From positions 1-64,000 of the IMG/VR virus record IMGVR_UViG_3300042905_004373: a DNA stretch of 64,000 nt. One strand, given 5' to 3'. The DNA is from a virus. Shown piece by piece: positions 451-14,832 of this stretch. How positions within the stretch are numbered: position 1 is the first letter of the stretch; the number at the start of each line of letters is the position of its first letter. Under the pieces are notes generated by a model that ran no database searches, was not told the origin of the DNA, and was given only the letters and a program-made list of their open reading frames with translations. The position numbers were made by a program, and so were the translations under genes.

Positions 451-508
451 GACACTTTGACAACTGGCACAGGGCATCCTTCGGGGTGCCCTTTCTTGCC
501 TTATAATA
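451..508 (+). promoter_or_regulatory. Class-A early cassette (PeSL-like): GACACtTTGAcAACTGGCACA box + GGGCAUCC-UUCG-GGGUGCCC hairpin + U-run + CCTTATAAT
   Basis: Stop codon of upstream gene embedded in box; hairpin with UUCG tetraloop followed by TTTCTT (intrinsic-terminator-like); TATAAT 33 nt before ATG 528; element recurs ~10 times. Confidence 0.55.
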
Positions 509-527
509 CTCTCATACGCAAAGAATA

Positions 528-896
528 ATGAAAAAACTTTTCCTTCTTTCCGCACTTCTGTTTGCTCCGATTCCCGTGATGGCACAACAAGTGAATAACT
601 TTGCAGTCTGCACTCAGAATCAAGAAGTCTATCGACCCGGTGGATATGATCGTTATGGTAATTATGTACCTGGCGGTGTAAGTGTTCAAACTTACAATGT
701 TCCTTGCAATGGTGCAAATCAGTACTATAGTAATGGTGGTAAGGCAACTAATCCAAACTGTAATCCTACAAGAACTGTATTGGGTGCCGTACTTGGTGGT
801 GCAATTGGTCGTGCTGCTGCCATGAATTATCCACGAAATTATGGTTGGGCAACTGCATTGGGTGCATCACTTGGAGGACTTACTTTTGCTTGCTGA
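528..896 (+). CDS. secreted/periplasmic small protein with glycine-zipper motif
   Basis: N-terminal signal peptide MKKLFLLSALLFAPIPVMAQQ; C-terminal GxxxG zipper VLGAVLGGAIGRAAA...ALGASLGGL; SD-spaced ATG after cassette. Confidence 0.7.
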   Translation: MKKLFLLSALLFAPIPVMAQQVNNFAVCTQNQEVYRPGGYDRYGNYVPGGVSVQTYNVPCNGANQYYSNGGKATNPNCNPTRTVLGAVLGGAIGRAAAMNYPRNYGWATALGASLGGLTFAC

Positions 897-1057
897 TGAA
901 TGAATTCACTTTTCGTCAAATTATGTTTCTTTTGCATGAAGATTCTTCGGATCAAGCATATGCTGCAATGGAATATTTTTTCTATGAATATGTGCCAGAT
1001 AATGTAGATCCCAATGTTACATTAATTGATTATCTTGATAATAGGATGTATGTATGA
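896..1057 (+). CDS. hypothetical small protein (53 aa)
   Basis: ATG overlaps upstream TGA (TGATGA); in frame with track ORF 845..1057. Confidence 0.4.
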   Translation: MNEFTFRQIMFLLHEDSSDQAYAAMEYFFYEYVPDNVDPNVTLIDYLDNRMYV

Positions 1058-1224
1058 CTAATCTTGAAATTCGGCAACAACTTGATTTACTAATGTATAC
1101 TATTAGAGAATTTTATGATTATAGTTCAGAGGAAGATTATGAAGAAGATGATGTTGAACTTTATCATGAATCCATAAAAGTTTATAAGCATCTAAGATCT
1201 TATTTTAAAGATGACAACAACTGA
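1054..1224 (+). CDS. hypothetical acidic small protein (56 aa)
   Basis: ATGTATGA overlap with previous stop; MTNLEIRQQLDLL...; not in track (<60 aa). Confidence 0.35.
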   Translation: MTNLEIRQQLDLLMYTIREFYDYSSEEDYEEDDVELYHESIKVYKHLRSYFKDDNN

Positions 1225-1251
1225 CAAACTCATTTTCATTTCTTCGTTCAT

Positions 1252-1749
1252 TTGGTTTTTGCACTGGGGTTCATGTATTACATTAAGACTTCTGGATACG
1301 GTTATTCTAAACGCCTCTGTGAGGACATTACCGTTTGGTTTCTGAATAAGTTTCTTCCACGACATAAAATTGAAGTGGAGATTCTGCATCGTGGACTGAA
1401 GCGTGAATTTGTCTACGGTTGGTGTGATTTTGAGGATGATTTTAGACGACCACGCAGTTTTCTGATTGAACTTCAGACTCATATGAATGAGGAGTTGTAT
1501 ATAAAAACTCTTTTTCATGAACTGGTTCATCTACGACAGTGGGTGATGGGTTCCCTGCAGTTCCGTCGTGGAAAAATGCTTTATTGTAAAGAACCAGTGG
1601 AATTTTATGCTTATGACGATCAACCACACGAAATTGAGGCACGGGAGCAAGAAGAAACGCTATATCTGGAGTATATTCTGGAGAAAAACCCTGTGCCACC
1701 TCTTGAACTGGCACAGCACTTCCCGAACCGCCTGCTGCAGGCAGTATAA
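1252..1749 (+). CDS. HExxH-motif protein (putative zinc metallopeptidase-like)
   Basis: LFHELVHLRQW contains HExxH; 165 aa; true start may lie upstream (alternative start codons). Confidence 0.55.
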   Translation: MVFALGFMYYIKTSGYGYSKRLCEDITVWFLNKFLPRHKIEVEILHRGLKREFVYGWCDFEDDFRRPRSFLIELQTHMNEELYIKTLFHELVHLRQWVMGSLQFRRGKMLYCKEPVEFYAYDDQPHEIEAREQEETLYLEYILEKNPVPPLELAQHFPNRLLQAV

Positions 1750-1776
1750 TTACAAGGTAATCAAGGGAACGAACCC

Positions 1777-1974
1777 ATGACTCTTCCATCCCACAACGCG
1801 ATCTCCTTCCGTTCTGAAGAGGAGCATCAGGCAGCACTCTACGATGCTTGCCTGCTGATTGTGAACACCTACAATCAGACTGATATGCTTGATGGTTATG
1901 ATGGTCTTGGTTTGACTTCATATGGTTTCATGAAGTTTGCCCGAAACATTATCAACAATTTTGAAGGCAACTGA
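1777..1974 (+). CDS. hypothetical protein
   Basis: Leader AAGGTAATCAAGGGAACGAACCCATG recurs at 13480; 65 aa. Confidence 0.5.
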   Translation: MTLPSHNAISFRSEEEHQAALYDACLLIVNTYNQTDMLDGYDGLGLTSYGFMKFARNIINNFEGN

Positions 1975-2223
1975 AATGATTCGAAGATTGAATATTAAAG
2001 AAATTCTTCTAGACCCAAAGAAGAAAAAAGAACTGATTGATCGTGTAGTAGAAACCCTAAGATTGCCTTGGATTAAATGACTTACATCGTTACAATAGAA
2101 ACTCTTAACGGAGAGTATTTTCAAGAGATTGTGGAAACCAATTCCGAATCATCTGTTCTCTGTGAGCGCATCTTTAATCAAACTCCAAATGTTCGTTCAG
2201 TTGAAGTAAATCCCACATAATTA

Positions 2224-2433
2224 ATGAATATGACAGAAACACAAGTAAATCTAAATGTGCATGAGATTGGTATTATCCTCTCTGCACTTCAAAATCTAGA
2301 GAATATTGATCAAATTCACATTGCCAGAGACTATGGGAGTGCGCCAGCACTCTATAACAAACTCTATTCTGTGATGGAGCGGATGGACAGTTCGCAAACT
2401 GGACTACGGTACGACCTGACCCCCTCCTTCTGA
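2224..2433 (+). CDS. hypothetical protein
   Basis: 69-aa ORF, compact spacing. Confidence 0.45.
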   Translation: MNMTETQVNLNVHEIGIILSALQNLENIDQIHIARDYGSAPALYNKLYSVMERMDSSQTGLRYDLTPSF

Positions 2434-2467
2434 CCTATAATACTCATATACACACAAGACACCGAAC

Positions 2468-2884
2468 ATGGGTTACTACACTTACTACGAACTGAGCATT
2501 GACAATTCTCAAGACAAAGGTCATGTTGAGAAAAAGAAACAATCCGAAATTGAAGAAATTCAACAATCAAATATCTCTGATGAGTTGAAGAAACGACTCA
2601 TCAAAGATGTTGAAAAGATGTATGAGACCAGCATTGCTACTCAAAATGATGTGGTTAATTTTCTAACTTTCAATCCATTTGGTGTTCAACAAAAATGGTA
2701 TGACCACACTGAGGATATGTGTAGGCTTTCTAAGGAATATCCGAATGTGCTGTTCATTCTTACTGGTAAGGGTGAAGAACCTGAGGATATGTGGGTCAAG
2801 TATTTTATGAATGGTAAAGTTCAAGTTGAAAATGCAGTCATCACTTATGGCAAGTTTGATCCGAAAAAACTGGTAGCAGTGTGA
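2468..2884 (+). CDS. hypothetical protein
   Basis: 138-aa ORF ending in GTGACACTCTGACAACTGGCAC cassette. Confidence 0.6.
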   Translation: MGYYTYYELSIDNSQDKGHVEKKKQSEIEEIQQSNISDELKKRLIKDVEKMYETSIATQNDVVNFLTFNPFGVQQKWYDHTEDMCRLSKEYPNVLFILTGKGEEPEDMWVKYFMNGKVQVENAVITYGKFDPKKLVAV

Positions 2885-2937
2885 CACTCTGACAACTGGC
2901 ACAGGGCACTCCACATCACCCTGGATGCCCTATAATA
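2883..2937 (+). promoter_or_regulatory. Class-A cassette (GACACTCTGACAACTGGCACA ... GGGCA..TGCCC hairpin ... CCTATAAT)
   Basis: Same architecture as 451..508. Confidence 0.5.
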
Positions 2938-2959
2938 CTTTCATACACACAGAGGACTG

Positions 2960-3103
2960 ATGAAACCAACTTACATCTTTCTTGCATTCATTGCCATTCT
3001 GATGTATAATGTAGTTCTGATCAAACGTGATCAAGAACTCTTCAAGGCATATGACACTAAATGTGCCGAAATCTCACATCCCCATTGCCATCTTTCCAAA
3101 TGA
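2960..3103 (+). CDS. small hydrophobic membrane protein (47 aa)
   Basis: MKPTYIFLAFIAILMYNVVLI... single TM; first ATG after cassette. Confidence 0.4.
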   Translation: MKPTYIFLAFIAILMYNVVLIKRDQELFKAYDTKCAEISHPHCHLSK

Positions 3104-3303
3104 ACGATTCTGATATTAACCAATTCATCAAGGCACTTAAGGATTTCATCAAACATGCCGAAGTGGAAAAACTGTACCATCAGAGTAAGATGGCATATCT
3201 GAACTCTAAGAAAACTGCTCAAAAAACAGTTCATGATGAGATTGAAAAAAAAGCGGCAGAACTGGAAGTGACGGTTGATTACTATCTTGCCGAATTCATG
3301 TGA
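3100..3303 (+). CDS. hypothetical protein (67 aa)
   Basis: ATGA overlap with previous stop; MNDSDINQFIKALKDF... Confidence 0.45.
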   Translation: MNDSDINQFIKALKDFIKHAEVEKLYHQSKMAYLNSKKTAQKTVHDEIEKKAAELEVTVDYYLAEFM

Positions 3304-3304
3304 T

Positions 3305-3475
3305 ATGAATGAGAAAAGCAAACTGATTCTGGCACTTCTACAGATTGATAATCTCACTTCTCTTCTGAAGGGAAATGAGTATCAATCTTTTCTGTATTCA
3401 CATCTCATTTCACTTCAAATTGAAGTTCAAAGACAATTGACAAATCTCACACATTCATCTACAATTAAGGAGTAA
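3305..3475 (+). CDS. hypothetical protein (56 aa)
   Basis: TGATATGAATG coupling; in frame with track ORF 3275..3475. Confidence 0.35.
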   Translation: MNEKSKLILALLQIDNLTSLLKGNEYQSFLYSHLISLQIEVQRQLTNLTHSSTIKE

Positions 3476-3488
3476 TTTACAAAAACAA

Positions 3489-3719
3489 ATGAAGTATCTT
3501 TATATCGTTGATTACTGGGTTCCGTTTCCAGCATCTGAAGGTGGTGGTCTGATCAATCTGATTGCTCAATCTGATACTGAGGCATTTGAACTTCTTGTTG
3601 CAGAAAAGCAATTTGATGATCGCTATACAGATCGGATTATGGATCGTGTAGTCAATGCACAAAAGTTCGCTCTTGTTGATGAATATGAATCTGGCATTCT
3701 GGAGGCATTTACCACATGA
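3489..3719 (+). CDS. hypothetical protein
   Basis: 76-aa ORF. Confidence 0.5.
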   Translation: MKYLYIVDYWVPFPASEGGGLINLIAQSDTEAFELLVAEKQFDDRYTDRIMDRVVNAQKFALVDEYESGILEAFTT

Positions 3720-3883
3720 CACAATTGTATCGTATTGAAGAATTGTTTACAAATGGTTGGGAGTTGATTGACGAGTCAGCAACCAAACTTACAAAGGAAC
3801 AATGTAATCAAAAACTTCAACATTATCTTACTCAGGGATATAATCCCAATTGTCTTCGTGCAGTATTAGATTTGGAAGAATGA
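3716..3883 (+). CDS. hypothetical protein (55 aa)
   Basis: ATGA overlap; MTQLYRIEELFTNGWELIDE... Confidence 0.35.
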   Translation: MTQLYRIEELFTNGWELIDESATKLTKEQCNQKLQHYLTQGYNPNCLRAVLDLEE

Positions 3884-4116: not shown

Positions 4117-4195
4117 AATATCATGAAAATATTTGTCGCTGGTGCTATCTTTGGTGTAATTCTGGCATTTGTATTGCACTGATAGACCACTTTTC

Positions 4196-4245
4196 AAACT
4201 GGCACAGTCTGATGGCATTTGCCTCATAAGATACCTTATAATACA
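4196..4245 (+). promoter_or_regulatory. Class-A cassette (AAACTGGCACAG ... CCTTATAAT)
   Basis: TGGCACA box and TATAAT upstream of ATG 4269 with AAGGAGG SD. Confidence 0.45.
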
Positions 4246-4268
4246 TTTGACAATAAGGAGGAATTCTC

Positions 4269-4538
4269 ATGCAAACCCCAATGATTGAAATTAATGAACA
4301 TAACTATTGTGATCAGAAACCAGTCACAATAGAGTTTTCATTTGAAGAACATAGTCTTTTCAATGATGTTCTGAATCATTTTCTGGACATTTATGATTTT
4401 GTTGGATATGGTGAGATCTATGATCTTTCCGATGATTCTGAAATCAAAAAGAAATATAACATGGTTATGAATATGAAAGAACGATCTCATCAACTCTGGG
4501 CACATCGTTTTGACAATCCACCATACAATAATGATTGA
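4269..4538 (+). CDS. hypothetical protein
   Basis: 89 aa; strong SD AAGGAGG. Confidence 0.6.
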   Translation: MQTPMIEINEHNYCDQKPVTIEFSFEEHSLFNDVLNHFLDIYDFVGYGEIYDLSDDSEIKKKYNMVMNMKERSHQLWAHRFDNPPYNND

Positions 4539-6872: not shown

Positions 6873-7697
6873 GTGAAAACATTTCAAGAGTTTCTTGAGG
6901 AAAGTGCCCTTGCAAGATTGGCACTTCGGGGTATAAGATCTGCATCAAGAGTTGCAAGAACTGCTGATGGTGGAAGAAGAGTTACATCAGCAGCAAGAGC
7001 AACAAGAAATGTAAGATCAAGAGTAGTAGAACCAAAAGGAATGCCCGAAACAGGTACAACAAGATACTTTGATCGTAAATTAGGTAATAGCGATCTTGCA
7101 GCATTTAAAAAAGCAAATTTTAGAACAAGTCGATCTGACGCTAGAGATTATGACAGAACCAGACCACGGTCTTACAGTTATAAATCAACACCATCAGGAG
7201 AACCCTCTTTTTATACAACAATTGTTTCAAAATATCCGAATCAAGCGGCATATGCACAGAGACAATTGCCAGATAAAAAGTCTTATGGTTTCAATGCAAG
7301 AACACAACAAAGTGGATTTAAGGTAACTCCATCAAGAGAAAGAGCATTCTTTGCAAGTCAGTTAAGAAAACAACTGGGAGGAACAAGAACTCCTAAACAA
7401 GTTGCAGATATTGAAATTGGAACAAAATCAGATTATTATAGAAAAAATGATCCGACAGATCTGATCGGAAGAGGTAAAGAATTTGTTCAAACACTAAAAG
7501 ATGTTCCACAAAGACTTGCAACATCGAATGTGAAACCAGGTGATAAAGTCACTGCTCATCCAGCAGCAGTGATGCCAGGTGAAACAAATAAAGTAATGGG
7601 AAGAAAAAAAAGAGCAGATCTTTATAAGAGGATTGCAGGAAATAGGATGACAAAAATGAATCCTGTGACTCAGGCACTTGTAGGTACAATGCAATGA
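6873..7697 (+). CDS. internal-protein-like basic protein, paralog B (MKTFQEFLEES, GTG start)
   Basis: CTS-like N-terminus; shares 52-nt identical stretch and C-terminal similarity with 7694..8476. Confidence 0.7.
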   Translation: MKTFQEFLEESALARLALRGIRSASRVARTADGGRRVTSAARATRNVRSRVVEPKGMPETGTTRYFDRKLGNSDLAAFKKANFRTSRSDARDYDRTRPRSYSYKSTPSGEPSFYTTIVSKYPNQAAYAQRQLPDKKSYGFNARTQQSGFKVTPSRERAFFASQLRKQLGGTRTPKQVADIEIGTKSDYYRKNDPTDLIGRGKEFVQTLKDVPQRLATSNVKPGDKVTAHPAAVMPGETNKVMGRKKRADLYKRIAGNRMTKMNPVTQALVGTMQ

Positions 7698-8476
7698 AGA
7701 CATTTCAAGAGTTTAACGAAAGTGCTGCTATTGCAAGAGGTGCCTTAAAATTACTTAGATCAGCATCCAGAGCAGGTAAAGTCGCAAGAACCGCTGATGG
7801 TGGAAGAAGAGTTACATCAGCAGCAAGAGCAACAAGAAATGTAAAATCAAAAGCAGTTCCTCCTCGTGGTCCAGGTGAAAATACATGGGATAGACTAGAT
7901 GCTAGAAGAAGTATTTCAGATAAAGTAGTACTAAAAAAGGCAGGATTCAAGAGACGTGATCCTAACGAACAACCTAAAGAAACTGAAGCATGGGCATCAC
8001 CTCATCATTCCACTATGGTCCGCACTTATAAAAATCAAAGTGATTACGTTATAGATCAAGTACCACATAAAAATCTTGCATCTGGAAGAGCAACAAGAAA
8101 AGTAAGATCAACTGCATCTATAGTAAGACACGCAAAAGCATTAAGAAAGCAGTTAGGTGGTGATCGTACATCAAAACCAGTACATGATGTTGCAATTCTA
8201 AGTGATAGATCTTATGCTAAAAATGACCCAGAAGATTTGATCTCAAGAGGTAGAAGTTTCAGGAAAGAAGTTGGTGCCGTACCTAGTGCATTATGGAAAG
8301 CAGGTGCAAACCCAGGTGATAAAGTTACGTCAGAACCTTCAGGAATTATGAGTGGTGAAGACATAATAAAAGGAAAAGAAAAAAGAGACAAGATCTATAC
8401 GAAGGTATTGAAAGCAAAGATGAATCCAAAGACTGGTAAGACGATGGGTACATATAGAGATATGGATAATAACTAA
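7694..8476 (+). CDS. internal-protein-like basic protein, paralog C (MKTFQEFNES)
   Basis: ATGA overlap with paralog B; clear paralogy (ARTADGGRRVTSAARATRNV...; NDP.DLI.RG..F). Confidence 0.7.
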   Translation: MKTFQEFNESAAIARGALKLLRSASRAGKVARTADGGRRVTSAARATRNVKSKAVPPRGPGENTWDRLDARRSISDKVVLKKAGFKRRDPNEQPKETEAWASPHHSTMVRTYKNQSDYVIDQVPHKNLASGRATRKVRSTASIVRHAKALRKQLGGDRTSKPVHDVAILSDRSYAKNDPEDLISRGRSFRKEVGAVPSALWKAGANPGDKVTSEPSGIMSGEDIIKGKEKRDKIYTKVLKAKMNPKTGKTMGTYRDMDNN

Positions 8477-8506
8477 AACCTAAATGTTCTTTATTCCCTA
8501 AAATAA

Positions 8507-8632
8507 ATGAAAAACTTTCAGCAATTTCAAGAAAGTGCTGCTATTGCAAGAGGTGCCTTAAAATTACTTAGATCAGCATCCAGAGCAGGTAAAGTCGCAA
8601 GAACTGCTGATGGTGGAGATGTCAAGAAGTAA
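8507..8632 (+). pseudogene. truncated 41-aa copy of internal-protein paralog C (MKNFQQFQESAAIARGALKLLRSASRAGKVARTADGG...)
   Basis: ~100 nt near-identical to 7713..7810, then cut off by class-A cassette at 8641. Confidence 0.5.
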
Positions 8633-8640
8633 GTAGGACA

Positions 8641-8695
8641 CCTGAACAACTGGCACACAGGGCACTTCACAGGTGCTCTTTCTTGTCTTATAATA
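8641..8695 (+). promoter_or_regulatory. Class-A cassette (CCTGAACAACTGGCACACAGGGCAC ... TTTCTTGTCTTATAAT)
   Basis: Consensus copy. Confidence 0.5.
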
Positions 8696-8717
8696 CTCTC
8701 ATACGCAAAGGACTCAA

Positions 8718-9449
8718 ATGTTCCAATTCGCAGAAGTCGGTGGTGCAGTCCGAGACAAGTTTCTTGGTGTAGATTCCAAGGATGTTGATTTCGTTGCAAT
8801 CCCGATAAATCCAAAGATGTTCGCAAATGCCGATGAGGCATTTGCTACCTTAGTGAATGTTTTGAAAGTTGATGGATTTGAGGTTTTTCTAGAAACTCCT
8901 GAGTTCTTCACTGTTCGGGCACAAGTTCCAACGTGGCATCCTGTGAGGAAAAGAACTACTGTTGCTGACTTTGTTCTGGCACGGAAAGATGGTCCGAGTA
9001 GTGATGGTCGTCGTCCTGATTTTGTTCTTCCCGGAACCCTGATGGATGACCTGCAACGACGGGATTTTACCGTGAATGCGATGGCAATTCTGGATGGGGA
9101 ACTGGTGGATCCTTTCGGTGGTCGTGAAGACCTTGAGAATAATCTTCTTCGGTTTGTGGGTAATCCTACTGACCGAATTGCAGAAGATGGTCTGAGGGTT
9201 ATGAGGGCACTGCGGTTTCACATTACCAAAGGGTTTAATATTGAAGGACAAACTTGGGATGCAGTCAATAGCGATTTTGCTGCTGAAATGCTGAACAAGG
9301 TTTCGGTTGAACGTATCCGTGAGGAACTTGAAAAAATGTTTCTTGCAAATACCGTTGCTACTATGGAGACCCTCAGTGATGTGAGGCGTAAAATGAAAAA
9401 TGCCATCTTCCGTGATGGTCTGCGTCTGATGCCCACTCTGAAAAAGTAA
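8718..9449 (+). CDS. tRNA nucleotidyltransferase / poly(A) polymerase family head-domain protein (CCA-adding-enzyme-like, 243 aa)
   Basis: GGAVRD (GGxVRD) and RRDFTVNA (RRDFTxNA) class-II nucleotidyltransferase motifs; DPFGG..DL; RALRF. Confidence 0.75.
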   Translation: MFQFAEVGGAVRDKFLGVDSKDVDFVAIPINPKMFANADEAFATLVNVLKVDGFEVFLETPEFFTVRAQVPTWHPVRKRTTVADFVLARKDGPSSDGRRPDFVLPGTLMDDLQRRDFTVNAMAILDGELVDPFGGREDLENNLLRFVGNPTDRIAEDGLRVMRALRFHITKGFNIEGQTWDAVNSDFAAEMLNKVSVERIREELEKMFLANTVATMETLSDVRRKMKNAIFRDGLRLMPTLKK

Positions 9450-9910: not shown

Positions 9911-10150
9911 ATGAAACTACATTACGAAATCAAACACCCTAAAGAGTTGGAAACTATGAAAGAAAATGGTGATATTCAAGATTATTCTCTTTATGATAAT
10001 GATTTTGGGGAGACTCTTGAAATTACATTTCCTTCAGGTAAAACTCTAGTAGTTCATAACTGGGGTGCAGAATACAACTGTTATCTTGATTTTACACAAA
10101 CTCCAGATGAACCTCAAAGAACATCTAAAACAACGGCACCTAAACCTTGA
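9911..10150 (+). CDS. hypothetical protein
   Basis: 79 aa; C-terminus ...DEPQRTSKTTAPKP repeats 9806 ORF N-terminus. Confidence 0.5.
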   Translation: MKLHYEIKHPKELETMKENGDIQDYSLYDNDFGETLEITFPSGKTLVVHNWGAEYNCYLDFTQTPDEPQRTSKTTAPKP

Positions 10151-10220
10151 ACTACATCGTCCATTTTTAGATGAAGAACTCAACATCGCCACTTTTTATT
10201 GCTGGAACCCATCAGGACAA

Positions 10221-10637
10221 ATGGTAGGATACCAACAATACAACCCAAATGGTGATAAGAAAATCTTTAATTCTAAATTGGAGGGCAAATACTATACCTA
10301 CAGAAACAAGAATCACCAAACAGTAGTTGTATGGGGCACCGAAAGTCTCTATCAGTCAGATGGTGTTGTCTATCTGACTGAAGGAATCTTTGATGCTGCC
10401 CGTATGACAAATATGGGGCAATCTGCTCTTGCTGCTATGGCAAATAATCCTCCAAAGGATTATAGAAACTGGTTGCAAATGCTAAATCGTCCTGTGGTTG
10501 CTGTTTGTGATAATGATGATGCAGGAAGAAAACTTGCCAAGTTCGGGCATTATGTAGAAGTAGTTCCTGATGGTAAAGATTTGGGTGATGCTCCTGATGA
10601 TTATGTCAGGTATCTACTCACCAAGTATGCCACCTGA
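10221..10637 (+). CDS. stand-alone TOPRIM-domain protein (DnaG-type)
   Basis: LTEGIFDA (EGxxD) and CDNDDAGRK (DxDxAG) TOPRIM motifs; first in-frame ATG after 9911 ORF stop (track ORF 10065 opens earlier, overlapping). Confidence 0.6.
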   Translation: MVGYQQYNPNGDKKIFNSKLEGKYYTYRNKNHQTVVVWGTESLYQSDGVVYLTEGIFDAARMTNMGQSALAAMANNPPKDYRNWLQMLNRPVVAVCDNDDAGRKLAKFGHYVEVVPDGKDLGDAPDDYVRYLLTKYAT

Positions 10638-10687
10638 CGAACTGGCACACTGAGGCACTCCAGACTCCTCTGGATGCCCTATAATAG
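10633..10687 (+). promoter_or_regulatory. Class-A cassette (CCTGACGAACTGGCACACTGAGGCAC ... 10-bp bulged hairpin ... CCCTATAAT)
   Basis: Consensus copy; near-identical duplicate at 11501..11560. Confidence 0.5.
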
Positions 10688-10715
10688 TCTCATACACACA
10701 AAGGAGAGTTTCCAA

Positions 10716-11198
10716 ATGGGTCTTGATATGTATCTCTATGCCGAAAAGAGATTTGGTTTTTGTAGTTGGGATAAAGAAGGAAAGGATAATGAAAAGTTTG
10801 ATAAACTTGTAGAGTTTGCAGAACTGAGTGATGTTGTGGATAAACAAATTGGGTCTGTTTCCGCATATGTCAAAGTTGAAGTTGGGTATTGGCGAAAGGT
10901 AAATGCCATTCACGAATACTTTGTGGGTAACTGTGCTAATGGTGTAGATGAATGTCAAGAGATTGAAGTTTATCGAGAAACTTTGGTTGCTCTGAAAGAT
11001 ATTTGTGGTCAACTGAGTTTGACTAAAGATGCAGAACAAGCAAAAGAACTTCTTTGCCCTAAAGGTGGTTTCTTCTTCGGAAGCACTGAGATTAATGAAT
11101 ACTACTTTGATAATATTGAATACACTTATGAACTTCTGACTAAGATTCTGGAAAATACACCAGAAGATTATCACTTCATCTATCGAGCATCCTGGTAG
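10716..11198 (+). CDS. hypothetical protein
   Basis: 160 aa from ATG with AAAGGAGAG SD after cassette. Confidence 0.6.
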   Translation: MGLDMYLYAEKRFGFCSWDKEGKDNEKFDKLVEFAELSDVVDKQIGSVSAYVKVEVGYWRKVNAIHEYFVGNCANGVDECQEIEVYRETLVALKDICGQLSLTKDAEQAKELLCPKGGFFFGSTEINEYYFDNIEYTYELLTKILENTPEDYHFIYRASW

Positions 11199-11204
11199 AC
11201 ACTT

Positions 11205-11255
11205 CCCAAACCGGCACAAGACCCCTCCACAGGGGCACCAGATGCCTTATAATAG
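11205..11255 (+). promoter_or_regulatory. Class-A cassette variant (AAACCGGCACAAG ... GATGCCTTATAAT)
   Basis: CCGGCACA instead of CTGGCACA. Confidence 0.4.
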
Positions 11256-11283
11256 TCTCATACACACAAAGGAGGTTCTCCAA

Positions 11284-11508
11284 ATGTCTTTTACTGCTGA
11301 AGGAACTATTGAAATTGATTTGGCAGAGTTCTTCACTTGGATTTACCAAAACTACGCACCTGTAAATGGTGTTGAGTATCAGTATGGTGTTCCTCGTGTG
11401 AATAAGAGTAATCAAACACTTGAGATTGATTTTGCGATGGCAACTGATTGTAATCCAAAGGATTGGATTGAACAACCTGATGCAGTCAATCAGTGGAAGG
11501 ACACTTGA
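11284..11508 (+). CDS. hypothetical protein (74 aa)
   Basis: ATG 8 nt after AAAGGAGG. Confidence 0.55.
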   Translation: MSFTAEGTIEIDLAEFFTWIYQNYAPVNGVEYQYGVPRVNKSNQTLEIDFAMATDCNPKDWIEQPDAVNQWKDT

Positions 11509-11560
11509 CGAACTGGCACACTGAGGCACTCCAGACTCCTCTGGATGCCCTATAATAGTC
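11501..11560 (+). promoter_or_regulatory. Class-A cassette (near-identical copy of 10633..10687)
   Basis: CTTGACGAACTGGCACACTGAGGCACTCCAGACTCCTCTGGATGCCCTATAAT. Confidence 0.5.
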
Positions 11561-11581
11561 TCATACACACAGAAACCTCCT

Positions 11582-11794
11582 ATGAAAATCAGCACTCAAA
11601 TTACTATCCAAGATCATAATGGTTTTTGGTATCAGGTAGAAGATATTCATACTGATGTGGGTTGTCCTGGTTGCACTATTTCCTATTGGGAAGAAGATAG
11701 TGAGCGAGGTGATAAACGACATTCATTCATTTGTATGAATAAGGAAGAAGCACTTGCTATTGCTGATGCCATCTACAAACTCTTTAAGAACTGA
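11582..11794 (+). CDS. hypothetical protein
   Basis: 70 aa. Confidence 0.55.
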   Translation: MKISTQITIQDHNGFWYQVEDIHTDVGCPGCTISYWEEDSERGDKRHSFICMNKEEALAIADAIYKLFKN

Positions 11795-11967
11795 TGGACT
11801 ACGAAACTTACATAGACATCAAGCAGTATTCTACTGATTGTTATTTTTCTTACACCCTCAGGGTTACAGATGTAATGAATATGGATTACTACTATAGTGG
11901 TACTGCTAAAACTCTTGATGATGTTATGGATTGTATCAAACTTCACCTCAAACAACACCAGAACTGA
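11794..11967 (+). CDS. hypothetical protein (57 aa)
   Basis: TGATGG overlap. Confidence 0.35.
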   Translation: MDYETYIDIKQYSTDCYFSYTLRVTDVMNMDYYYSGTAKTLDDVMDCIKLHLKQHQN

Positions 11968-11968
11968 A

Positions 11969-12154
11969 ATGACCATCAAATCTGTGATTGTAACACGCTC
12001 TATTGAGTATTCTCCCGAAGTATATCTTGAGTGTTGTGAAGAAACTGGTGAAACTCCTACACAAGAAGGATTCATTGAATTCATCCAAGATTGGATTTAT
12101 GATGACTTTAGGTGTGGTAACACCACACAAGAAATCACCGAACTCAACTACTGA
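11969..12154 (+). CDS. hypothetical Cys-containing protein (61 aa)
   Basis: in frame with track ORF 11897. Confidence 0.4.
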   Translation: MTIKSVIVTRSIEYSPEVYLECCEETGETPTQEGFIEFIQDWIYDDFRCGNTTQEITELNY

Positions 12155-12156
12155 AA

Positions 12157-12381
12157 ATGACTATTTTTTCCCGAACTCTTGATAGAGGAAATTACAAGAG
12201 TGTTGCTCAGTGTGAAGAACTACTATTTGTTTATGGTGAATATCGTGAGATGGCAAACGATATTTCAAATGATTGTGGCAGAACTATCAGTAGTGCTTCG
12301 TTGATTATGCTTCTTCAACAAATGACTGACCGCATTTGTGACCTTGAACGTGAAATCGCAAAACTCAACGGAGAAAATTGA
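12157..12381 (+). CDS. hypothetical protein
   Basis: 74 aa. Confidence 0.5.
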   Translation: MTIFSRTLDRGNYKSVAQCEELLFVYGEYREMANDISNDCGRTISSASLIMLLQQMTDRICDLEREIAKLNGEN

Positions 12382-12382
12382 A

Positions 12383-12598
12383 ATGACTGAAAAAGACACC
12401 TATGCATACTGCGAACACCTTATTCAAAAAGAAATTGATGAGGTATTTGTGACTGTTAGTAGTTGGAGCAGAGAATGTGCCGACCATAATGAAGAGTTTA
12501 TTTCTTTCAAACAAAGAAAAAGTGAAGAACTCAAAAACCTCTACAAACACTTGGAGAACATTCAAAAACTGAAAACCTCTTATCTTACTGGACGATAA
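12383..12598 (+). CDS. hypothetical protein (71 aa)
   Basis: in frame with track ORF 12338. Confidence 0.45.
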   Translation: MTEKDTYAYCEHLIQKEIDEVFVTVSSWSRECADHNEEFISFKQRKSEELKNLYKHLENIQKLKTSYLTGR

Positions 12599-12774
12599 TG
12601 ACTAACCAAATTACCAAAGAACAACTAATCCGAGTTAAAATTCTTCCTCAACTTGAAAGTGTTTCTGATTTTTTGCTTGATTGTCACGACAATTCCACAG
12701 CAAAGCATTTTGGTAGGAAACTGGATAAAATTACTGAAGAACTCATCACTATTTTGAACGACGAGGACACCTGA
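12598..12774 (+). CDS. hypothetical protein (58 aa) ending ...DEDT*
   Basis: ATAATG overlap; stop codon lies inside cassette GACACCTGAACAACTGGCAC. Confidence 0.4.
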   Translation: MTNQITKEQLIRVKILPQLESVSDFLLDCHDNSTAKHFGRKLDKITEELITILNDEDT

Positions 12775-12824
12775 ACAACTGGCACACAGGGCACTTCACA
12801 GGGGAACCAGATGCCTTATAATTG
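12766..12824 (+). promoter_or_regulatory. Class-A cassette
   Basis: GACACCTGAACAACTGGCACACAGGGCAC...GATGCCTTATAAT. Confidence 0.5.
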
Positions 12825-12845
12825 ATTCATAAGCAACCCAACCAA

Positions 12846-13430
12846 ATGAACATCAACGGATACGAAATCAAACCTGGTGCTAACCTTGTGGGTGCTTACC
12901 TTGGGTGTGCTTACCTTGTGGGTGCTAACCTTAGCGGTGCTCACCTTGTGAGTGCTAACCTTGTGAGTGCTAACCTTAGGGGTACTAACCTTAGTGGTGC
13001 CGACCTTGAGGGTGCCGACCTTAGTTGTGCCGCCCTTAGGGGTGCCGACCTTTATGGTGCCATCCTTAGGGGTGCCTACCTTAGGGATGCCAACCTTAGT
13101 TGTGCCGCCCTTAGGGGTGCTGACCTTAGGGGTGCTGACCTTAGGGGTGCTTACCTTGAGGGTGCCATCCTTAGGGGTGCTGACCTTTATCGTGCCGACC
13201 TTAGGGGTGCCGACCTTAGGGGTGCCTACCTTTATCGTGCCGACCTTAGGTATGCCAACCTTGAGGGTGCCAACCTTGAGGGTGCAAATGTAACAGAAAC
13301 CATTCTTGATGGGAAAGAAGAACCTTCTCAAGATACCACTTCACTTTCTGAAAAAGTTAAAGAACTTGAGGAAGAAAACAAGAAACTTAAGGATACACTT
13401 AAGGCAATTCTGGCACTTCTGGACACCTGA
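12846..13430 (+). CDS. pentapeptide-repeat protein (28 tandem A[D/N]LxG repeats) with C-terminal coiled coil
   Basis: GANLV GAYLG ... GADLR GAYLE ...; 15-bp DNA periodicity; C-terminal KVKELEEENKKLKDTLKAILALL; start at ATG 12846 rather than track TTG 12822. Confidence 0.8.
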   Translation: MNINGYEIKPGANLVGAYLGCAYLVGANLSGAHLVSANLVSANLRGTNLSGADLEGADLSCAALRGADLYGAILRGAYLRDANLSCAALRGADLRGADLRGAYLEGAILRGADLYRADLRGADLRGAYLYRADLRYANLEGANLEGANVTETILDGKEEPSQDTTSLSEKVKELEEENKKLKDTLKAILALLDT

Positions 13431-13480
13431 ACAACTGGCACACAGGGCACTTCACAGGGGAACCAGATGCCTTATAATAC
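13424..13480 (+). promoter_or_regulatory. Class-A cassette (exact copy of 12766 box)
   Basis: GACACCTGAACAACTGGCACACAGGGCACTTCACAGGGGAACCAGATGCCTTATAAT. Confidence 0.5.
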
Positions 13481-13504
13481 AAAGGTAGTCAAGGGAACAC
13501 TCCC

Positions 13505-13642
13505 ATGAACATGAGACCCAAACGGTACTTCTTCTTCGATGAGTATGGTGCATGGTACAAGGTGATTGCAAGTTGTCTTGCTGCTGCTACTGCACAACTT
13601 CCTGCCGATTTTGAGTACGATTACTACGAGGTTCACAAATGA
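13505..13642 (+). CDS. hypothetical protein (45 aa)
   Basis: ATG after conserved leader; ATGA overlap with next gene. Confidence 0.35.
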   Translation: MNMRPKRYFFFDEYGAWYKVIASCLAAATAQLPADFEYDYYEVHK

Positions 13643-14226
13643 TTACCTTTGATTATGTCGTTCACAAACTCTACTGTGATCGTAAAGAATGGGAATGCTA
13701 TTCTTACACTCCCGATTCAGTCATTGAAGAGATCAATGCACTTGTTTATGCAGTAATCACAACCAACACTGAACCTATAATTGCACAGAAGATCATTTAT
13801 GATACGATCTATGCAAATGAGATGTATCGTGGATATGGTTTCAGTGATTCTGAGTGCGATCAGTGTACGACCAATATCATCAATGAGTATTATGGTAGTG
13901 ACATTGATCGTTGGGTAAATCGTTCTCTAATTGCAGAACATAAGAATGAGAAGTGGATTCATAACGTAACACCTCAAAAAAACAACACACAGGAGAAAAA
14001 AGCAGTGGGACTTACACAACAAAGTTACGAACGACTTGCTGAAGCACTTGCTGATGAAGTATCCTGTTATATTGCTGAGGATGACAGGTTTCGGGAAATG
14101 ATTCTGAAGTTGATTCCTGAAGCAATTCAGAGTAAACTTGGTCTTGTTGATGCTGAAGTTATTGGTGAGTTGACTGCTCATCTTGCACCTAGAATGGTTC
14201 TTGTTGATATGGAATTCAATGTCTGA
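13639..14226 (+). CDS. hypothetical protein
   Basis: 195 aa. Confidence 0.6.
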   Translation: MITFDYVVHKLYCDRKEWECYSYTPDSVIEEINALVYAVITTNTEPIIAQKIIYDTIYANEMYRGYGFSDSECDQCTTNIINEYYGSDIDRWVNRSLIAEHKNEKWIHNVTPQKNNTQEKKAVGLTQQSYERLAEALADEVSCYIAEDDRFREMILKLIPEAIQSKLGLVDAEVIGELTAHLAPRMVLVDMEFNV

Positions 14227-14509
14227 AAATTACTCTCTACTTGAACCGATTCCTGCTTGCCGCGATTGTAAGCATTGTCGTTTGATTCCTGGTCTTTTTC
14301 ATGTTTGCCAAAAGCATTATGTTGAAGAATTGGATTACATTAAAGGCATAGTTTATGCTGTTGATATGGTTTGTATTGAAGTCAGGAAAGATAAATCTCT
14401 CTGTGGTCGAAATGGAAAGGATTTTGAGCAGAGGGAAAACCCACTTGAAGAAGACAAACCCAAATCAACTTGGTGGCATCTCAAGCAAATGATTAAAGAA
14501 TTCTTTTAA
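14219..14509 (+). CDS. Cys-rich hypothetical protein (CRDCKHC...C)
   Basis: ATGTCTGA overlap with upstream stop; in frame with track ORF 14183. Confidence 0.5.
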   Translation: MSENYSLLEPIPACRDCKHCRLIPGLFHVCQKHYVEELDYIKGIVYAVDMVCIEVRKDKSLCGRNGKDFEQRENPLEEDKPKSTWWHLKQMIKEFF

Positions 14510-14514
14510 GCATA

Positions 14515-14781
14515 ATGAATTACGAAACTGAAATCATAGATGGACACAAAGCAGTTGTCCGTCATTTCTTCAAACATCATGAAATCCAAGTTGGTTCTCG
14601 TTGGGCACGGGCAGATGGTTCCAAGGGTTATGTGACCGTTGAGGGTTTTAATTCTTATGGTTCTACTGACCCTTGGTATGAGGTTGTTTATTCTTGGGAA
14701 GAGAATGGTGTGAAGAAAACCTGGCAAAAAGAAACTTTTGCTTTCCAGTGCCGTTATTGCTTGATTGTTGAGGACACCTGA
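14515..14781 (+). CDS. hypothetical protein ending ...VEDT*
   Basis: 88 aa; stop within cassette. Confidence 0.55.
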   Translation: MNYETEIIDGHKAVVRHFFKHHEIQVGSRWARADGSKGYVTVEGFNSYGSTDPWYEVVYSWEENGVKKTWQKETFAFQCRYCLIVEDT

Positions 14782-14832
14782 TTAACTGGCACAGCAGGGC
14801 ACTTCAGACTCCTCTGGATGCCCTACAATAGT
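14774..14832 (+). promoter_or_regulatory. Class-A cassette variant (CCTGATTAACTGGCACAGCAGGGCAC ... CCCTACAAT)
   Basis: TACAAT -10 variant. Confidence 0.45.

What the first reader, a model, noticed from the sequence alone, without database searches (positions are those of the whole stretch)
451..14832. Class-A promoter-early stem-loop cassettes that include the upstream stop codon (modular shuffling units)
About 10 copies share the consensus GACAC(C/T)TGA-(C/A)(A/G)AACTGGCACA-[GC hairpin, sometimes a UUCG tetraloop + U-run]-(C/T)CTTATAAT-ctcatacacacaaaggag-N7-ATG. They lie at 451, 2883, 4196, 8641, 10633, 11205, 11501, 12766, 13424 and 14774. The TGGCACA box sits about 45 nt upstream of TATAAT, in an activator or UP-like position. 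Several upstream genes end ...EDT*/...LDT* because their last codons are part of the cassette. This matches the PeSL elements proposed to drive modular gene exchange in T4-type phages. These copies are unusually uniform and dense.
Basis: partly seen in the sequence, partly recalled or inferred. Interest (0 to 1): 0.55.

Follow-up and report, generated by a model that had tools for sequence, protein, structure and literature searches.

The report
Cyanophage early-promoter cassettes with upstream dyad
The repeats are real: about 27 compact control cassettes in front of small early genes of a T4-like cyanophage, each pairing a conserved 24-base two-part site with a -10 promoter box, a promoter type shared by many cyanophages and tied to early expression in a relative, so this is a dense new example of a largely known kind.

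Summary
There are 26 + strand copies and at least one - strand copy between 448 and 24091, against 0-4 in shuffles.

The "TGGCACA box" is the right half of a 24-bp pseudo-dyad, TGTG(A/C)CA(G/C)TT-N4-AA(C/G)TGGCACA. It sits a fixed 29-31 bp upstream of a -10 hexamer, with no conserved -35. A GC hairpin fills the gap in about 60% of copies. The upstream gene's stop codon lies inside the dyad in about 14 of 26 copies.

The same dyad/-10 unit occurs in S-SRM01, Syn9, P-HM2 and at least 119 IMG/VR contigs. In P-HM2, published RNA-seq clusters put 8 of 12 dyad-headed genes in the early class and none in the late classes (P = 2e-7). These are therefore T4-like-cyanophage early promoters. From memory only, I think this is the early-gene element of Doron et al. 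2016; I could not read that paper.

They work like PeSLs but fail two PeSL-defining features: no -35, and the stem-loop lies inside the promoter. Modular shuffling is partly supported. One clean cassette-bounded 0.86-kb indel against S-SRM01, one truncation joint and mosaic cassettes support it, but gene-order breakpoints show no general enrichment. The binding factor is unknown.

The parts
448..530 (+). Cassette 1. Dyad 448-471, UUCG hairpin 471-492 plus T-run, -10 TATAAT 502-507, ATG 528.
1692..1779 (+). Dyad 1692-1715 (TGTGCCA...TGGCACA), -10 1745-1750, ATG 1777.
2880..2962 (+). Cassette 3. Dyad 2880-2903; the upstream stop is the TGA at 2882, inside the dyad. Hairpin 2903-2931, -10 2931-2936, ATG 2960.
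4183..4271 (+). Cassette 4. Dyad 4183-4206 (weak left half), weak hairpin, -10 4237-4242, AGGAGG, ATG 4269.
8634..8720 (+). Cassette 5. Dyad 8634-8657, hairpin 8659-8679 plus T-run, TTCACA-17-TATAAT, -10 8689-8694, ATG 8718. Joined to the truncated paralog 8507-8632.
10626..10718 (+). Cassette 6. Dyad 10626-10649 (stop TGA at 10635 inside), hairpin 10654-10678, -10 10680-10685, AAGGAG, ATG 10716.
11195..11286 (+). Cassette 7. Dyad 11195-11218 (CGGCACA variant; stop TAG at 11196), -10 11248-11253, ATG 11284.
11497..11584 (+). Cassette 8. Dyad 11497-11520 (stop TGA at 11506, KDT*). Its spacer is 100% identical to that of cassette 6. -10 11551-11556, ATG 11582.
12763..12848 (+). Cassette 9. Dyad 12763-12786 (stop TGA at 12772, EDT*), -10 12817-12822, ATG 12846 (pentapeptide-repeat protein).
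13419..13507 (+). Cassette 10. Dyad 13419-13442 (stop TGA at 13428, LDT*). Its spacer is identical to that of cassette 9. -10 13473-13478, ATG 13505.
14770..14857 (+). Cassette 11. Dyad 14770-14793 (stop TGA at 14779, EDT*), hybrid hairpin, -10 TACAAT 14824-14829, ATG 14855 (DUF7717, homolog of Syn9 gp69).
15690..15752 (+). Atypical copy. Dyad 15690-15713, no hairpin, doubtful -10 at 15747-15752, no clear ORF downstream.
16233..16318 (+). Cassette 13. Dyad 16233-16256 (CGGCACA), -10 16288-16293, ATG 16316. The same dyad has a TATAAT 29 nt away on the - strand.
16468..16552 (+). Cassette 14. Dyad 16468-16491 (stop TGA at 16478), hairpin 16494-16517, -10 TACATT 16522-16527, ATG 16550.
16976..17064 (+). 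Cassette 15. Dyad 16976-16999 (stop TGA at 16985), 12-bp hairpin with 3 G.U pairs, -10 CATACT 17030-17035, ATG 17062 (homolog of the early gene PHM2_061).
17517..17607 (+). Cassette 16. Dyad 17517-17540 (stop TAA at 17530), hairpin 17541-17571, -10 TATACT 17571-17576, ATG 17605. Left boundary of the indel module.
17600..18464 (+). Module of about 0.86 kb: ORFs 17605-18072 and 18145-18393 plus internal cassette 17. It is present here and absent from S-SRM01, and is bounded by near-identical cassette cores.
18060..18147 (+). Cassette 17. Dyad 18060-18083 (TGGCACC; stop TGA at 18070), -10 TAAGAT 18114-18119, ATG 18145.
18381..18472 (+). Cassette 18. Dyad 18381-18404 (stop TGA at 18391). Its spacer is 97% identical to that of cassette 16. 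-10 18435-18440, ATG 18470. Right boundary of the indel module.
19033..19120 (+). Cassette 19. Full-scoring (10/10 + 10/10) dyad 19033-19056 (stop TAA at 19046), hairpin 19058-19076, -10 CATACT 19087-19092, ATG 19118.
19376..19434 (+). Cassette 20. Dyad 19376-19399 is identical to that of cassette 19. -10 19429-19434. No convincing ORF follows.
19932..20017 (+). Cassette 21. Dyad 19932-19955, no hairpin, -10 TAGATT 19986-19991, ATG 20015.
20457..20563 (+). Cassette 22. Palindromic dyad 20457-20480, -10 CATCAT 20512-20517, ATG 20561.
20422..20480 (-). Divergent - strand promoter that uses the same palindrome 20480-20457, with TATCTT 29 nt downstream at about 20427-20422.
21036..21135 (+). Cassette 23. 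Dyad 21036-21059 (stop TGA at 21038), GCGA-loop hairpin. The -10 TAGGAT at 21100-21105 is 40 nt away, one helical turn more than usual. ATG 21133 (GP88 family).
22357..22446 (+). Cassette 24. Dyad 22357-22380, -10 TAGGAT 22413-22418, ATG 22444.
22798..22884 (+). Cassette 25. Dyad 22798-22821 is identical to that of cassette 24, but the spacer differs. -10 CATACT 22851-22856, ATG 22882 (83-aa ORF, weakly winged-helix-like).
24031..24119 (+). Cassette 26. Dyad 24031-24054 (stop TGA at 24040), GCAA-loop hairpin 24056-24075, -10 TAGAAT 24086-24091, GTG 24117.

Best explanation
Each repeat is a self-contained early-transcription cassette of a T4-like cyanomyovirus. Its nearest sequenced relative is the freshwater Synechococcus phage S-SRM01.

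The core is a promoter with two parts. The first is a 24-bp pseudo-dyad, TGTG(A/C)CA(G/C)TT-N4-AA(C/G)TGGCACA. The second is a -10 hexamer (TATAAT to CATACT) 29-31 bp downstream. A conserved ATA about 12 nt after the start of the -10 is the probable transcription start, which places the dyad at about -66 to -43. There is no conserved -35.

My inference is that a protein binds the dyad. It would be a dimer or tandem DNA-binding factor, present at the moment of infection, so either host-encoded or delivered by the virion. It would recruit the host sigma-A RNA polymerase to what is otherwise a -10-only promoter.

The 30-bp gap between dyad and -10 is free to vary. In about 60% of the copies here it holds a GC-rich hairpin. 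I infer that this hairpin stops or insulates transcripts from the upstream gene, or stabilises their 3' end. The upstream ORF usually terminates inside the dyad, and a 14-24 nt leader runs to the next start codon, so stop-to-start is only about 90-110 nt.

Because the cassettes share 45-75 nt cores, homologous recombination between them can delete, insert or reshuffle the ORFan modules they flank, in the manner proposed for PeSLs.

Shown here: the anatomy, the fixed spacing, conservation across cyanophages, the link to early expression in P-HM2, and one cassette-bounded indel. Inferred: protein binding, activation, the role of the hairpin, and how often recombination happens.
For: Enrichment in the window:
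- 27 dyad/-10 units were found against 0-4 in shuffles, all within 448-24091.

Fixed spacing:
- In 119 IMG/VR loci, TATAAT lies 30 nt after TGGCACA in 157 cases, 29 nt in 67, 28 nt in 9 and 31 nt in 7.

The element is a dyad:
- The logo from 183 instances not used as seeds shows TGTGmCAsTT-N4-AAsTGGCACA.
- Palindromic copies serve divergent promoters, at window 20457-20480 and at P-HM2 39292/39315.

It is not selected as a hairpin:
- Mirror positions -10/-1 are mostly C/C or G/G, and positions -13/+2 are mostly A/G.

No -35:
- There is no information content between the dyad and the -10.
- Sigma70 -35/-10 pairs are not enriched: 68 against 55 +/- 7.

Conservation:
- The unit is present in S-SRM01 and Syn9.
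- P-HM2 has 21 hits against 0-4 in shuffles.
- At least 119 IMG/VR contigs hold the exact 19-base composite pattern.

Early timing:
- In P-HM2 the 12 intergenic dyad promoters head 8 Early(A) genes, 4 Mid(B) genes and no Mid(C) or Late genes. The two isolated early genes PHM2_135 and PHM2_136 are among them.
- The expression clusters come from Thompson 2016, S2 Table. The hypergeometric P is 2e-7.
- Window ORF 17062-17532 is homologous to the early gene PHM2_061, and 14855-15328 to Syn9 gp69. Each is preceded by a dyad in both genomes.

Hairpins:
- In the window, z < -2.3 in about 15 of 26 copies.
- Of 310 unique spacers, 41% have z < -2, and the sense strand is slightly more stable (p = 0.008).

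Recombination:
- The single S-SRM01 cassette equals the left flank of window copy 17517 plus the right flank of copy 18381.
- The truncated paralog 8507-8632 is joined to cassette 8634.
- Dyad, spacer and leader segments reassort among cassettes.
Against: - No transcription start, binding or termination data exist for this phage. The early timing is transferred from P-HM2.
- The binding factor is unidentified. The dyad matches no cyanobacterial motif I know (NtcA GTA-N8-TAC, CRP TGTGA-N6-TCACA, LexA, HLR1).
- A site centred near -54.5 is not on the classical -41.5/-61.5 faces used by CRP-type activators.
- Four of the 12 P-HM2 dyad promoters head Mid(B) genes rather than Early genes.
- PHM2_072-074 are early genes without a detected dyad.
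- Only 2 of 26 hairpins are followed by a T-run. Terminator-like sites are not enriched: 10 against 11.6.
- In the window alone the hairpins show no strand asymmetry (p = 0.32).
- Gene-order breakpoints across 75 related loci are not enriched for cassettes (p = 0.65 and 0.39).
Confidence: 0.72

Rival explanations
1. The dyad is an operator for a phage-encoded repressor that shuts early promoters off at the early-to-middle switch. T4-like cyanophages lack AsiA and MotA. On this reading the -10 alone, with host sigma-A, gives early transcription.
For: - The element has the dyad symmetry typical of repressor operators.
- Picocyanobacterial promoters often work with only a -10 (my own knowledge).
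- These phages encode small DNA-binding proteins: an annotated 'transcriptional regulator' (PHM2_239, Syn9 gp230), an AbrB-like protein in S-SRM01, and a weakly winged-helix-like 83-aa ORF at window 22882-23133.
Against: - A site at -66 to -43 does not overlap the core promoter, so simple occlusion is unlikely.
- The very tight 29-30 bp spacing is what face-of-helix activation predicts, not repression from a distance.
- PHM2_239 and Syn9 gp230 have no Pfam match.
- The 83-aa ORF is not conserved in Syn9 or P-HM2.
Confidence: 0.13
2. The conserved element acts in RNA. The dyad and the GC hairpin would form a tandem stem-loop 3' UTR of the upstream mRNA, for termination, processing or stabilisation, and the nearby -10 would be incidental.
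For: - The stop codon lies inside the element.
- UUCG and GNRA loops and G.U pairs occur in several hairpins.
- There is a slight sense-strand bias in stability across 310 spacers (p = 0.008).
Against: - The mirror positions of the dyad are systematically non-complementary (C/C, G/G, A/G).
- Spacing is fixed relative to the -10, not relative to the hairpin.
- Copies without any hairpin keep both the dyad and the -10 (15690, 19932, 20457).
- Palindromic copies have a -10 on both sides.
- There is no Rfam match.
Confidence: 0.07
3. The cassettes are primarily selfish or mobile recombination sites, for example targets of a site-specific recombinase or homing endonuclease. On this reading their spread, not gene regulation, explains their number and uniformity.
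For: - Cassette cores are near-identical and their segments are mosaic.
- There is a cassette-bounded indel.
- Their density is unusual: about 1.1 per kb over 24 kb.
Against: - No recombinase or endonuclease gene is associated with them.
- This reading does not explain the fixed distance to a -10, nor the match to experimentally early genes in P-HM2.
- Breakpoints are not generally enriched at cassettes.
Confidence: 0.05

Closest known systems
Early-gene regulatory element of T4-like cyanophages (Doron et al. 2016, ISME J 10:1437, Syn9 and P-TIM40). Recalled from the abstract only; the paper is not held.
   Same: - It precedes early-class genes, shown here by proxy in P-HM2.
- It is not a host-like -35/-10 promoter.
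- It is abundant and conserved among T4-like cyanophage genomes and metagenomes.
- It is present in Syn9's small-ORF region upstream of g25/g6.
   Different: - I could not compare the published logo with this dyad, so identity is inferred, not tested.
- The copies here are denser, often carry a nested hairpin, and overlap the upstream stop codon.
PeSL (promoter-early stem-loop) cassettes of RB49/phi1, T4/PST and KVP40/nt-1 (Arbiol 2010; Comeau 2014, PMC4122927)
   Same: - Short composite units lie between small ORFs of a hyperplastic region of a T4-type phage.
- Each has an early promoter, a stem-loop, a short leader and a start codon.
- The copies are repeated and similar.
- At least one indel relative to a close relative is bounded by two copies.
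   Different: - PeSLs have a sigma70 -35 and -10 with the stem-loop just upstream, preceded by an AT-rich region.
- Here there is no conserved -35. A GC-containing 24-bp dyad replaces the AT-rich/-35 part.
- The stem-loop lies inside the promoter, between the dyad and the -10.
- Most stem-loops lack a U-run.
T4 middle promoters (MotA box plus -10) and PmSLs of nt-1
   Same: It is a -10 hexamer combined with a phage-specific upstream box that takes the place of a -35. PmSLs also combine such a promoter with a stem-loop.
   Different: - The MotA box (TGCTT) is centred at -30 and needs the phage proteins MotA and AsiA, which cyanophages lack (PMC5780444).
- Here the box is a dyad at about -54 and drives early genes, not middle genes.
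Activator-dependent bacterial promoters with a dyad site (CRP/NtcA type)
   Same: A dyad-symmetric site lies at a fixed distance upstream of a -10, with a weak or absent -35.
   Different: - The sequence and half-site spacing differ: TGTGNCANTT-N4-AANTGNCACA against TGTGA-N6-TCACA or GTA-N8-TAC.
- The centre is near -54.5 rather than -41.5 or -61.5.

Membership tests
PeSL (Arbiol 2010; Comeau 2014) | Sigma70-like promoter with a recognisable -35 (TTGACA-like), a 17-nt spacer and a -10 | tested here: not met
   The -10 is present in all copies. There is no information content at the -35 position in 286 aligned instances. Only about 5 window copies have TTCACA, TCCACA or TTGACA by chance of the hairpin loop sequence.
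PeSL (Arbiol 2010; Comeau 2014) | Stem-loop located just upstream of the promoter's -35 | tested here: not met
   The hairpins lie between the dyad and the -10, for example at 471-492, 10654-10678 and 17541-17571. The PeSL layout is taken from the legends of Figs 3-4.
PeSL (Arbiol 2010; Comeau 2014) | The stem-loop is an effective transcription terminator | not testable with these tools
   A T-run follows only 2 of 26 hairpins. Terminator-like sites number 10 against 11.6 expected. Across IMG/VR spacers, 36 of 131 strong hairpins have a T-rich tail.
PeSL (Arbiol 2010; Comeau 2014) | Clustered between small non-essential ORFs of a hyperplastic region, ending in a leader and a start codon | tested here: met
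   There are 26 copies in 24 kb of mostly ORFan genes upstream of the baseplate genes. The 5' UTRs are 14-24 nt long.
PeSL (Arbiol 2010; Comeau 2014) | Insertions, deletions and replacements between close relatives are bounded by the elements | tested here: inconclusive
   For: a clean indel at 17600-18464, a truncation joint at 8616-8634, and 14 of 47 block ends inside cassettes against 12.6% coverage (p = 0.0015, confounded by intergenic position). Against: no enrichment at gene-order breakpoints (p = 0.65 and 0.39).
PeSL (Arbiol 2010; Comeau 2014) | Formation of mini-circles by exchange between nearby elements | not testable with these tools
   This needs PCR or sequencing of phage DNA.
T4-like cyanophage early-gene element (Doron 2016, recalled from memory) | Lies upstream of genes of the early expression class | tested here: met
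   Shown by proxy in P-HM2: 8 of 12 dyad-headed genes are Early(A) and none are Mid(C) or Late, P = 2e-7. Window genes are homologous to the early gene PHM2_061.
T4-like cyanophage early-gene element (Doron 2016, recalled from memory) | Abundant and conserved among T4-like cyanophage genomes and metagenomes | tested here: met
   Found in S-SRM01, Syn9 and P-HM2. At least 119 IMG/VR contigs hold the exact composite pattern, and 75 loci share homologs of the window's early ORFs.
T4-like cyanophage early-gene element (Doron 2016, recalled from memory) | Sequence agrees with the published motif logo and mapped transcription starts | not testable with these tools
   The paper is not held in the library. 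No citing paper that I read gives the sequence.
Sigma54 promoter (TGGCAC-N5-TTGC) | A -12 element TTGC five bases after TGGCAC, with the start about 12 nt further on | tested here: not met
   Variable hairpin sequence follows TGGCACA, with no TTGC at N5. Cyanobacteria lack sigma54 (my own knowledge).
NtcA- or CRP-dependent promoter | GTA-N8-TAC or TGTGA-N6-TCACA centred at -41.5 or -61.5 | tested here: not met
   The logo is TGTGmCAsTT-N4-AAsTGGCACA, with TGTG and CACA 16 bp apart and a centre near -54.5.
Rfam RNA families | A match at the gathering score | tested here: not met
   There are no matches in the whole window.

The most novel reading that the evidence does not exclude
The 24-bp pseudo-dyad may be the docking site of a still unidentified factor that lets T4-like cyanophages start early transcription without a -35. 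The factor could be a regulator common to Prochlorococcus, marine and freshwater Synechococcus, or a virion-delivered protein. Nesting a hairpin inside this promoter and overlapping the upstream stop codon would then create a distinct, cyanophage-specific form of PeSL that moves ORFan modules by recombination between cassette cores. A hint of a host connection is that exact dyads are over-represented in cyanobacterial genomes: about 20 of 55 hits in a scan of 185,579 species. Seven of those hits are one orthologous Nostocales site.
Probability: 0.3. Interest if true: 0.6.

Novelty: new member of a known kind. Interest (0 to 1): 0.38.

Why it matters
T4-like cyanophages lack the T4 proteins MotA and AsiA, and how they time their genes is only partly understood. 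This window gives an unusually dense and clean set of their early promoters. It shows three things:
- The conserved upstream box is a 24-bp pseudo-dyad at a fixed helical distance from the -10.
- The gap between dyad and -10 tolerates a nested hairpin.
- The unit overlaps the upstream stop codon.

That anatomy gives a precise bait for finding the binding factor, and precise mutations and spacing changes for reporter tests. It also provides one clear case in which two such cassettes bound a gene module that differs between two related freshwater cyanophages. This extends the PeSL idea of module exchange to cyanophages, where an earlier study of S-PM2 found few PeSLs (PMC4503421).

Tried and rejected
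- **Sigma54 reading of TGGCAC:** rejected. There is no TTGC at N5, and the hosts lack sigma54.
- **Dyad as a selected RNA or DNA hairpin:** rejected. Mirror positions are systematically non-complementary.
- **Hairpins as canonical intrinsic terminators:** not supported. A T-run follows 2 of 26, and terminator-like sites are not enriched.
- **Strand asymmetry of the hairpins within the window:** not significant (p = 0.32). It is only weakly significant in the larger set (p = 0.008).
- **A hidden -35:** none found.
- **Identifying the binding factor from host genomes:** the single genome-contig scan gave 55 hits. Seven of the cyanobacterial hits are one orthologous Nostocales site at the 3' end of purH, where an apparent 13-aa micro-ORF is just the antisense of the purH C-terminus. 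One hit is in Cyanobium, upstream of a PEP-CTERM-like gene. No regulon emerged.
- **Phage-encoded candidates:** PHM2_239 and Syn9 gp230 have no Pfam match. The window's 83-aa ORF matches BlaI only weakly and is not conserved.
- **General test of cassettes at gene-order breakpoints:** negative.
- **Literature:** the sequence of the Doron 2016 motif could not be obtained.
- **Rfam:** nothing.

Full report
**What the window is**

Megablast places the window in a T4-like cyanomyovirus. The closest isolate is the freshwater Synechococcus phage S-SRM01, with about 80% nucleotide identity in patches. The region from about 55 kb onward matches terminase and tail-sheath genes of S-SRM01, S-SKS1 and P-SSM2.

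The first 26 kb is a run of small, mostly ORFan + strand genes. It lies just upstream of the baseplate genes, as in S-SRM01. Its G+C is 0.37-0.51, against 0.27-0.31 for 28-56 kb.

**Checking the observation**

- AACTGGCACA with up to 1 mismatch occurs 30 times against 3.15 expected.
- All ten reported copies are present.
- One copy inside the range was missed (1692).
- The series continues to 24054, well past the stated end of 14832.
- Scoring the full element with a -10 at 27-32 nt gives 27 sites against 0-4 in 20 composition-preserving shuffles. None of the sites beyond 26 kb is convincing.
- The upstream ORF's stop codon lies inside the 24-bp element in about 14 of 26 copies. Other copies use the TGA of GTGACA or a stop within about 20 nt upstream.

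**Anatomy**

The "TGGCACA box" is the right half of a 24-bp pseudo-dyad.
- In 183 instances from related viral contigs that were not selected by my search pattern, the consensus is TGTG(A/C)CA(G/C)TT-N4-AA(C/G)TGGCACA.
- Later copies score the maximum against this consensus, for example 19033-19056 and 19376-19399, and 20457-20480 is almost an exact palindrome.
- The palindrome at 20457-20480 has a -10-like hexamer at 29-31 nt on both sides, so it is a divergent promoter pair. P-HM2 has the same arrangement at 39292/39315.

The distance from the dyad to the -10 is tightly fixed.
- In the related loci, TATAAT follows TGGCACA after 30 nt (157 cases), 29 nt (67), 28 nt (9) or 31 nt (7).
- In the window it is 29-31 nt in 21 of 26 copies. 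One copy, at 21036, is at 40 nt, one helical turn more.

Between the dyad and the -10 there is no conserved base, and in particular no -35. Generic sigma70 -35/-10 pairs are not enriched (68 against 55 +/- 7).

A conserved ATA about 12 nt after the start of the -10 is the likely transcription start. That puts the dyad at about -66 to -43, and leaves 14-24 nt leaders.

**The hairpin**

- A GC-rich hairpin fills the variable gap in about 15 of 26 window copies (z < -2.3). Its sequences vary, with UUCG, GCGA and GCAA loops.
- Copies such as 15690, 19932 and 20457 have no hairpin but keep the dyad and, except 15690 where it is doubtful, a -10.
- Of 310 unique spacers from related contigs, 41% fold significantly. 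The sense strand is slightly more stable than the antisense strand (p = 0.008). Only 36 of 131 strong hairpins have a T-rich tail.
- In the window a T-run follows only 2 hairpins, and terminator-like sites are not enriched.

The hairpin is therefore a frequent but optional passenger in the free spacer. It probably acts on the upstream transcript, but a terminator role is not shown.

**Is the dyad itself a hairpin?**

No. Its mirror positions -10/-1 are mostly C/C or G/G, and -13/+2 are mostly A/G, so they are systematically non-complementary. These linked variants define two subtypes, GACAC...AAC and GACAG...AAG. Both are present in the window.

**Relatives and timing**

The same dyad/-10 unit is found in:
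- S-SRM01;
- Syn9, at 47204, 48558, 51000 and 52996 in its small-ORF region upstream of g25/g6, and at 127492 and 148742;
- P-HM2, with 21 hits against 0-4 in shuffles;

For P-HM2, Thompson et al. 2016 published expression clusters (S2 Table).
- The 12 intergenic, high-scoring dyad promoters head PHM2_053, 057, 060, 061, 064, 065/066, 068, 135, 136, 148, 189 and 198.
- That is 8 Early(A) genes, 4 Mid(B) genes and no Mid(C) or Late genes (hypergeometric P = 2e-7).
- The only two early genes outside the early block, PHM2_135 and cobS (PHM2_136), each have their own dyad promoter.

Orthology links the window to these genes.
- Window ORF 17062-17532 is homologous to the early gene PHM2_061. ORF 14855-15328 is homologous to Syn9 gp69. 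All of these are preceded by dyads.
- The P-HM2 early block lies just upstream of g25/g6, the same genomic place as window 1-26 kb.

From memory of its abstract, Doron et al. 2016 reported "a novel regulatory element" controlling early genes of Syn9 and P-TIM40, abundant and conserved among T4-like cyanophages. I believe this is that element, but the paper is not held, and no citing paper I read gives the sequence.

**Comparison with PeSLs**

Comeau et al. 2014 describe PeSLs as follows: an AT-rich region, a stem-loop just upstream of a sigma70 -35/-10 promoter, then a Shine-Dalgarno sequence and a start codon. PeSLs cluster in hyperplastic regions and lie next to indels.

The present cassettes share the setting, the compactness and the promoter-plus-stem-loop idea. 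They fail two defining features: there is no -35, and the stem-loop sits inside the promoter. They work like PeSLs but are built on the cyanophage early promoter.

**Modular shuffling**

Evidence for:
- Relative to S-SRM01, the window carries an extra 0.86-kb module at about 17600-18464, made of two ORFans and an internal cassette.
- The single S-SRM01 cassette matches the left flank and dyad of window copy 17517, and the leader and ORF start of copy 18381. All three share the 45-nt hairpin/-10 core. This is exactly what recombination between two cassettes would produce.
- A tandem paralog that is intact in S-SRM01 is cut to 41 codons at 8507-8632. Its homology to S-SRM01 ends at about 8616, 18 nt before the cassette at 8634.
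- Dyad, spacer and leader segments reassort among cassettes. For example, 10626 and 11497 have identical spacers, 10626 and 11195 have 92% identical leaders but 40% identical spacers, and 22357 and 22798 have identical dyads but different spacers.
- Homology-block ends fall in cassettes more often than their coverage predicts: 14 of 47 against 12.6% (p = 0.0015). This is confounded by their intergenic position.

Evidence against a general rule:
- Across 75 related loci, junctions where gene order differs from the window are no more likely to carry a cassette than conserved junctions. The counts are 9 of 49 against 18 of 116 (p = 0.65). Judged from the window side, the odds ratio is about 2 (p = 0.39).

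**Who binds the dyad?**

This remains unknown.
- The dyad does not match the NtcA, CRP, LexA or HLR1 consensus sequences.
- A scan of one genome per species found 55 exact dyads, about 20 of them in cyanobacteria. Seven of those are one orthologous Nostocales site at the 3' end of purH, and only one is in Cyanobium.
- Small phage DNA-binding candidates gave nothing firm.

**Verdict**

The finding is real. It is a larger and more structured set than described, and it is best read as the early-promoter class of T4-like cyanophages, arranged here as dense PeSL-like cassettes. It is a good specimen of a largely known kind, with a useful anatomical refinement (pseudo-dyad, fixed spacing, nested hairpin, overlapping stop codon) and one clean recombination example.

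Noticed in passing
window 1-26000 vs 28000-56000: The early small-ORF region has much higher G+C (0.37-0.51, peaking at 22-24 kb) than the structural region (0.27-0.31). Possible reasons are a codon usage closer to the GC-rich host for genes translated before phage tRNAs appear, or foreign origin.
   Followed up: no
window 16468-24119: Cassettes in the second half have C/A-rich leaders (for example cagttcaccacaccactccgATG) with no Shine-Dalgarno sequence. Several in the first half have AAGGAG. This suggests two leader styles, or SD-independent initiation.
   Followed up: no
window 7694-8632: ORF 8507-8632 (41 aa) repeats the N-terminus of ORF 7694-8476. In S-SRM01 the second paralog is full length (L001 23655-24671). 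Here it is truncated 18 nt before cassette 8634.
   Followed up: yes
window 22882-23133: This 83-aa ORF, headed by a cassette, looks like a winged-helix DNA-binding protein. It has a weak Penicillinase_R/BlaI match (E = 0.017, below the cut-off). No homolog was found in Syn9, P-HM2 or the S-SRM01 stretch.
   Followed up: partly
window 8718-9449; 12846-13430; 21133-21867; 10107-10637: Cassette-headed genes with Pfam matches are a poly(A) polymerase/CCA-adding head domain protein, a pentapeptide-repeat protein and a GP88-family protein. A further ORF, 10107-10637, which lies upstream of cassette 6 rather than behind a cassette, has a weak Toprim-like match.
   Followed up: partly
window 19376-19520: Cassette 20 (dyad identical to cassette 19) is followed by a short hairpin (agcggg...cccgct) and a T6 run. 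No convincing ORF follows. It could be a small RNA or a decayed gene.
   Followed up: no
window 15700-16260: This AT-rich, ORF-poor stretch lies between an atypical dyad (15690, no hairpin, doubtful -10) and dyad 16233-16256. That dyad also has a TATAAT 29 nt away on the - strand, so it may be a divergent promoter.
   Followed up: no
L123, L127, L136, L142, L151, L166, L170 (Nostocales genomes): An exact copy of the dyad is conserved at an orthologous site just past the 3' end of purH in Anabaena, Nodularia and Cyanocohniella. The apparent 13-aa micro-ORF downstream is only the antisense of the conserved purH C-terminus.
   Followed up: partly
L169 3477-3500 (Cyanobium sp. CZS25K): A perfect palindrome, TGTGCCACTTGTGCAAGTGGCACA, lies 59 nt upstream of a PEP-CTERM-like gene, with a weak -10 (CAAACT) at about 29 nt. 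This is the only picocyanobacterial hit of the exact pattern.
   Followed up: no
P-HM2 125042 and 127350; Syn9 127492: The peptidase gene (T4-GC 146) carries its own dyad promoter in both P-HM2 and Syn9, far from the early block. cobS does so in P-HM2. Both P-HM2 genes fall in the early cluster in the light.
   Followed up: partly
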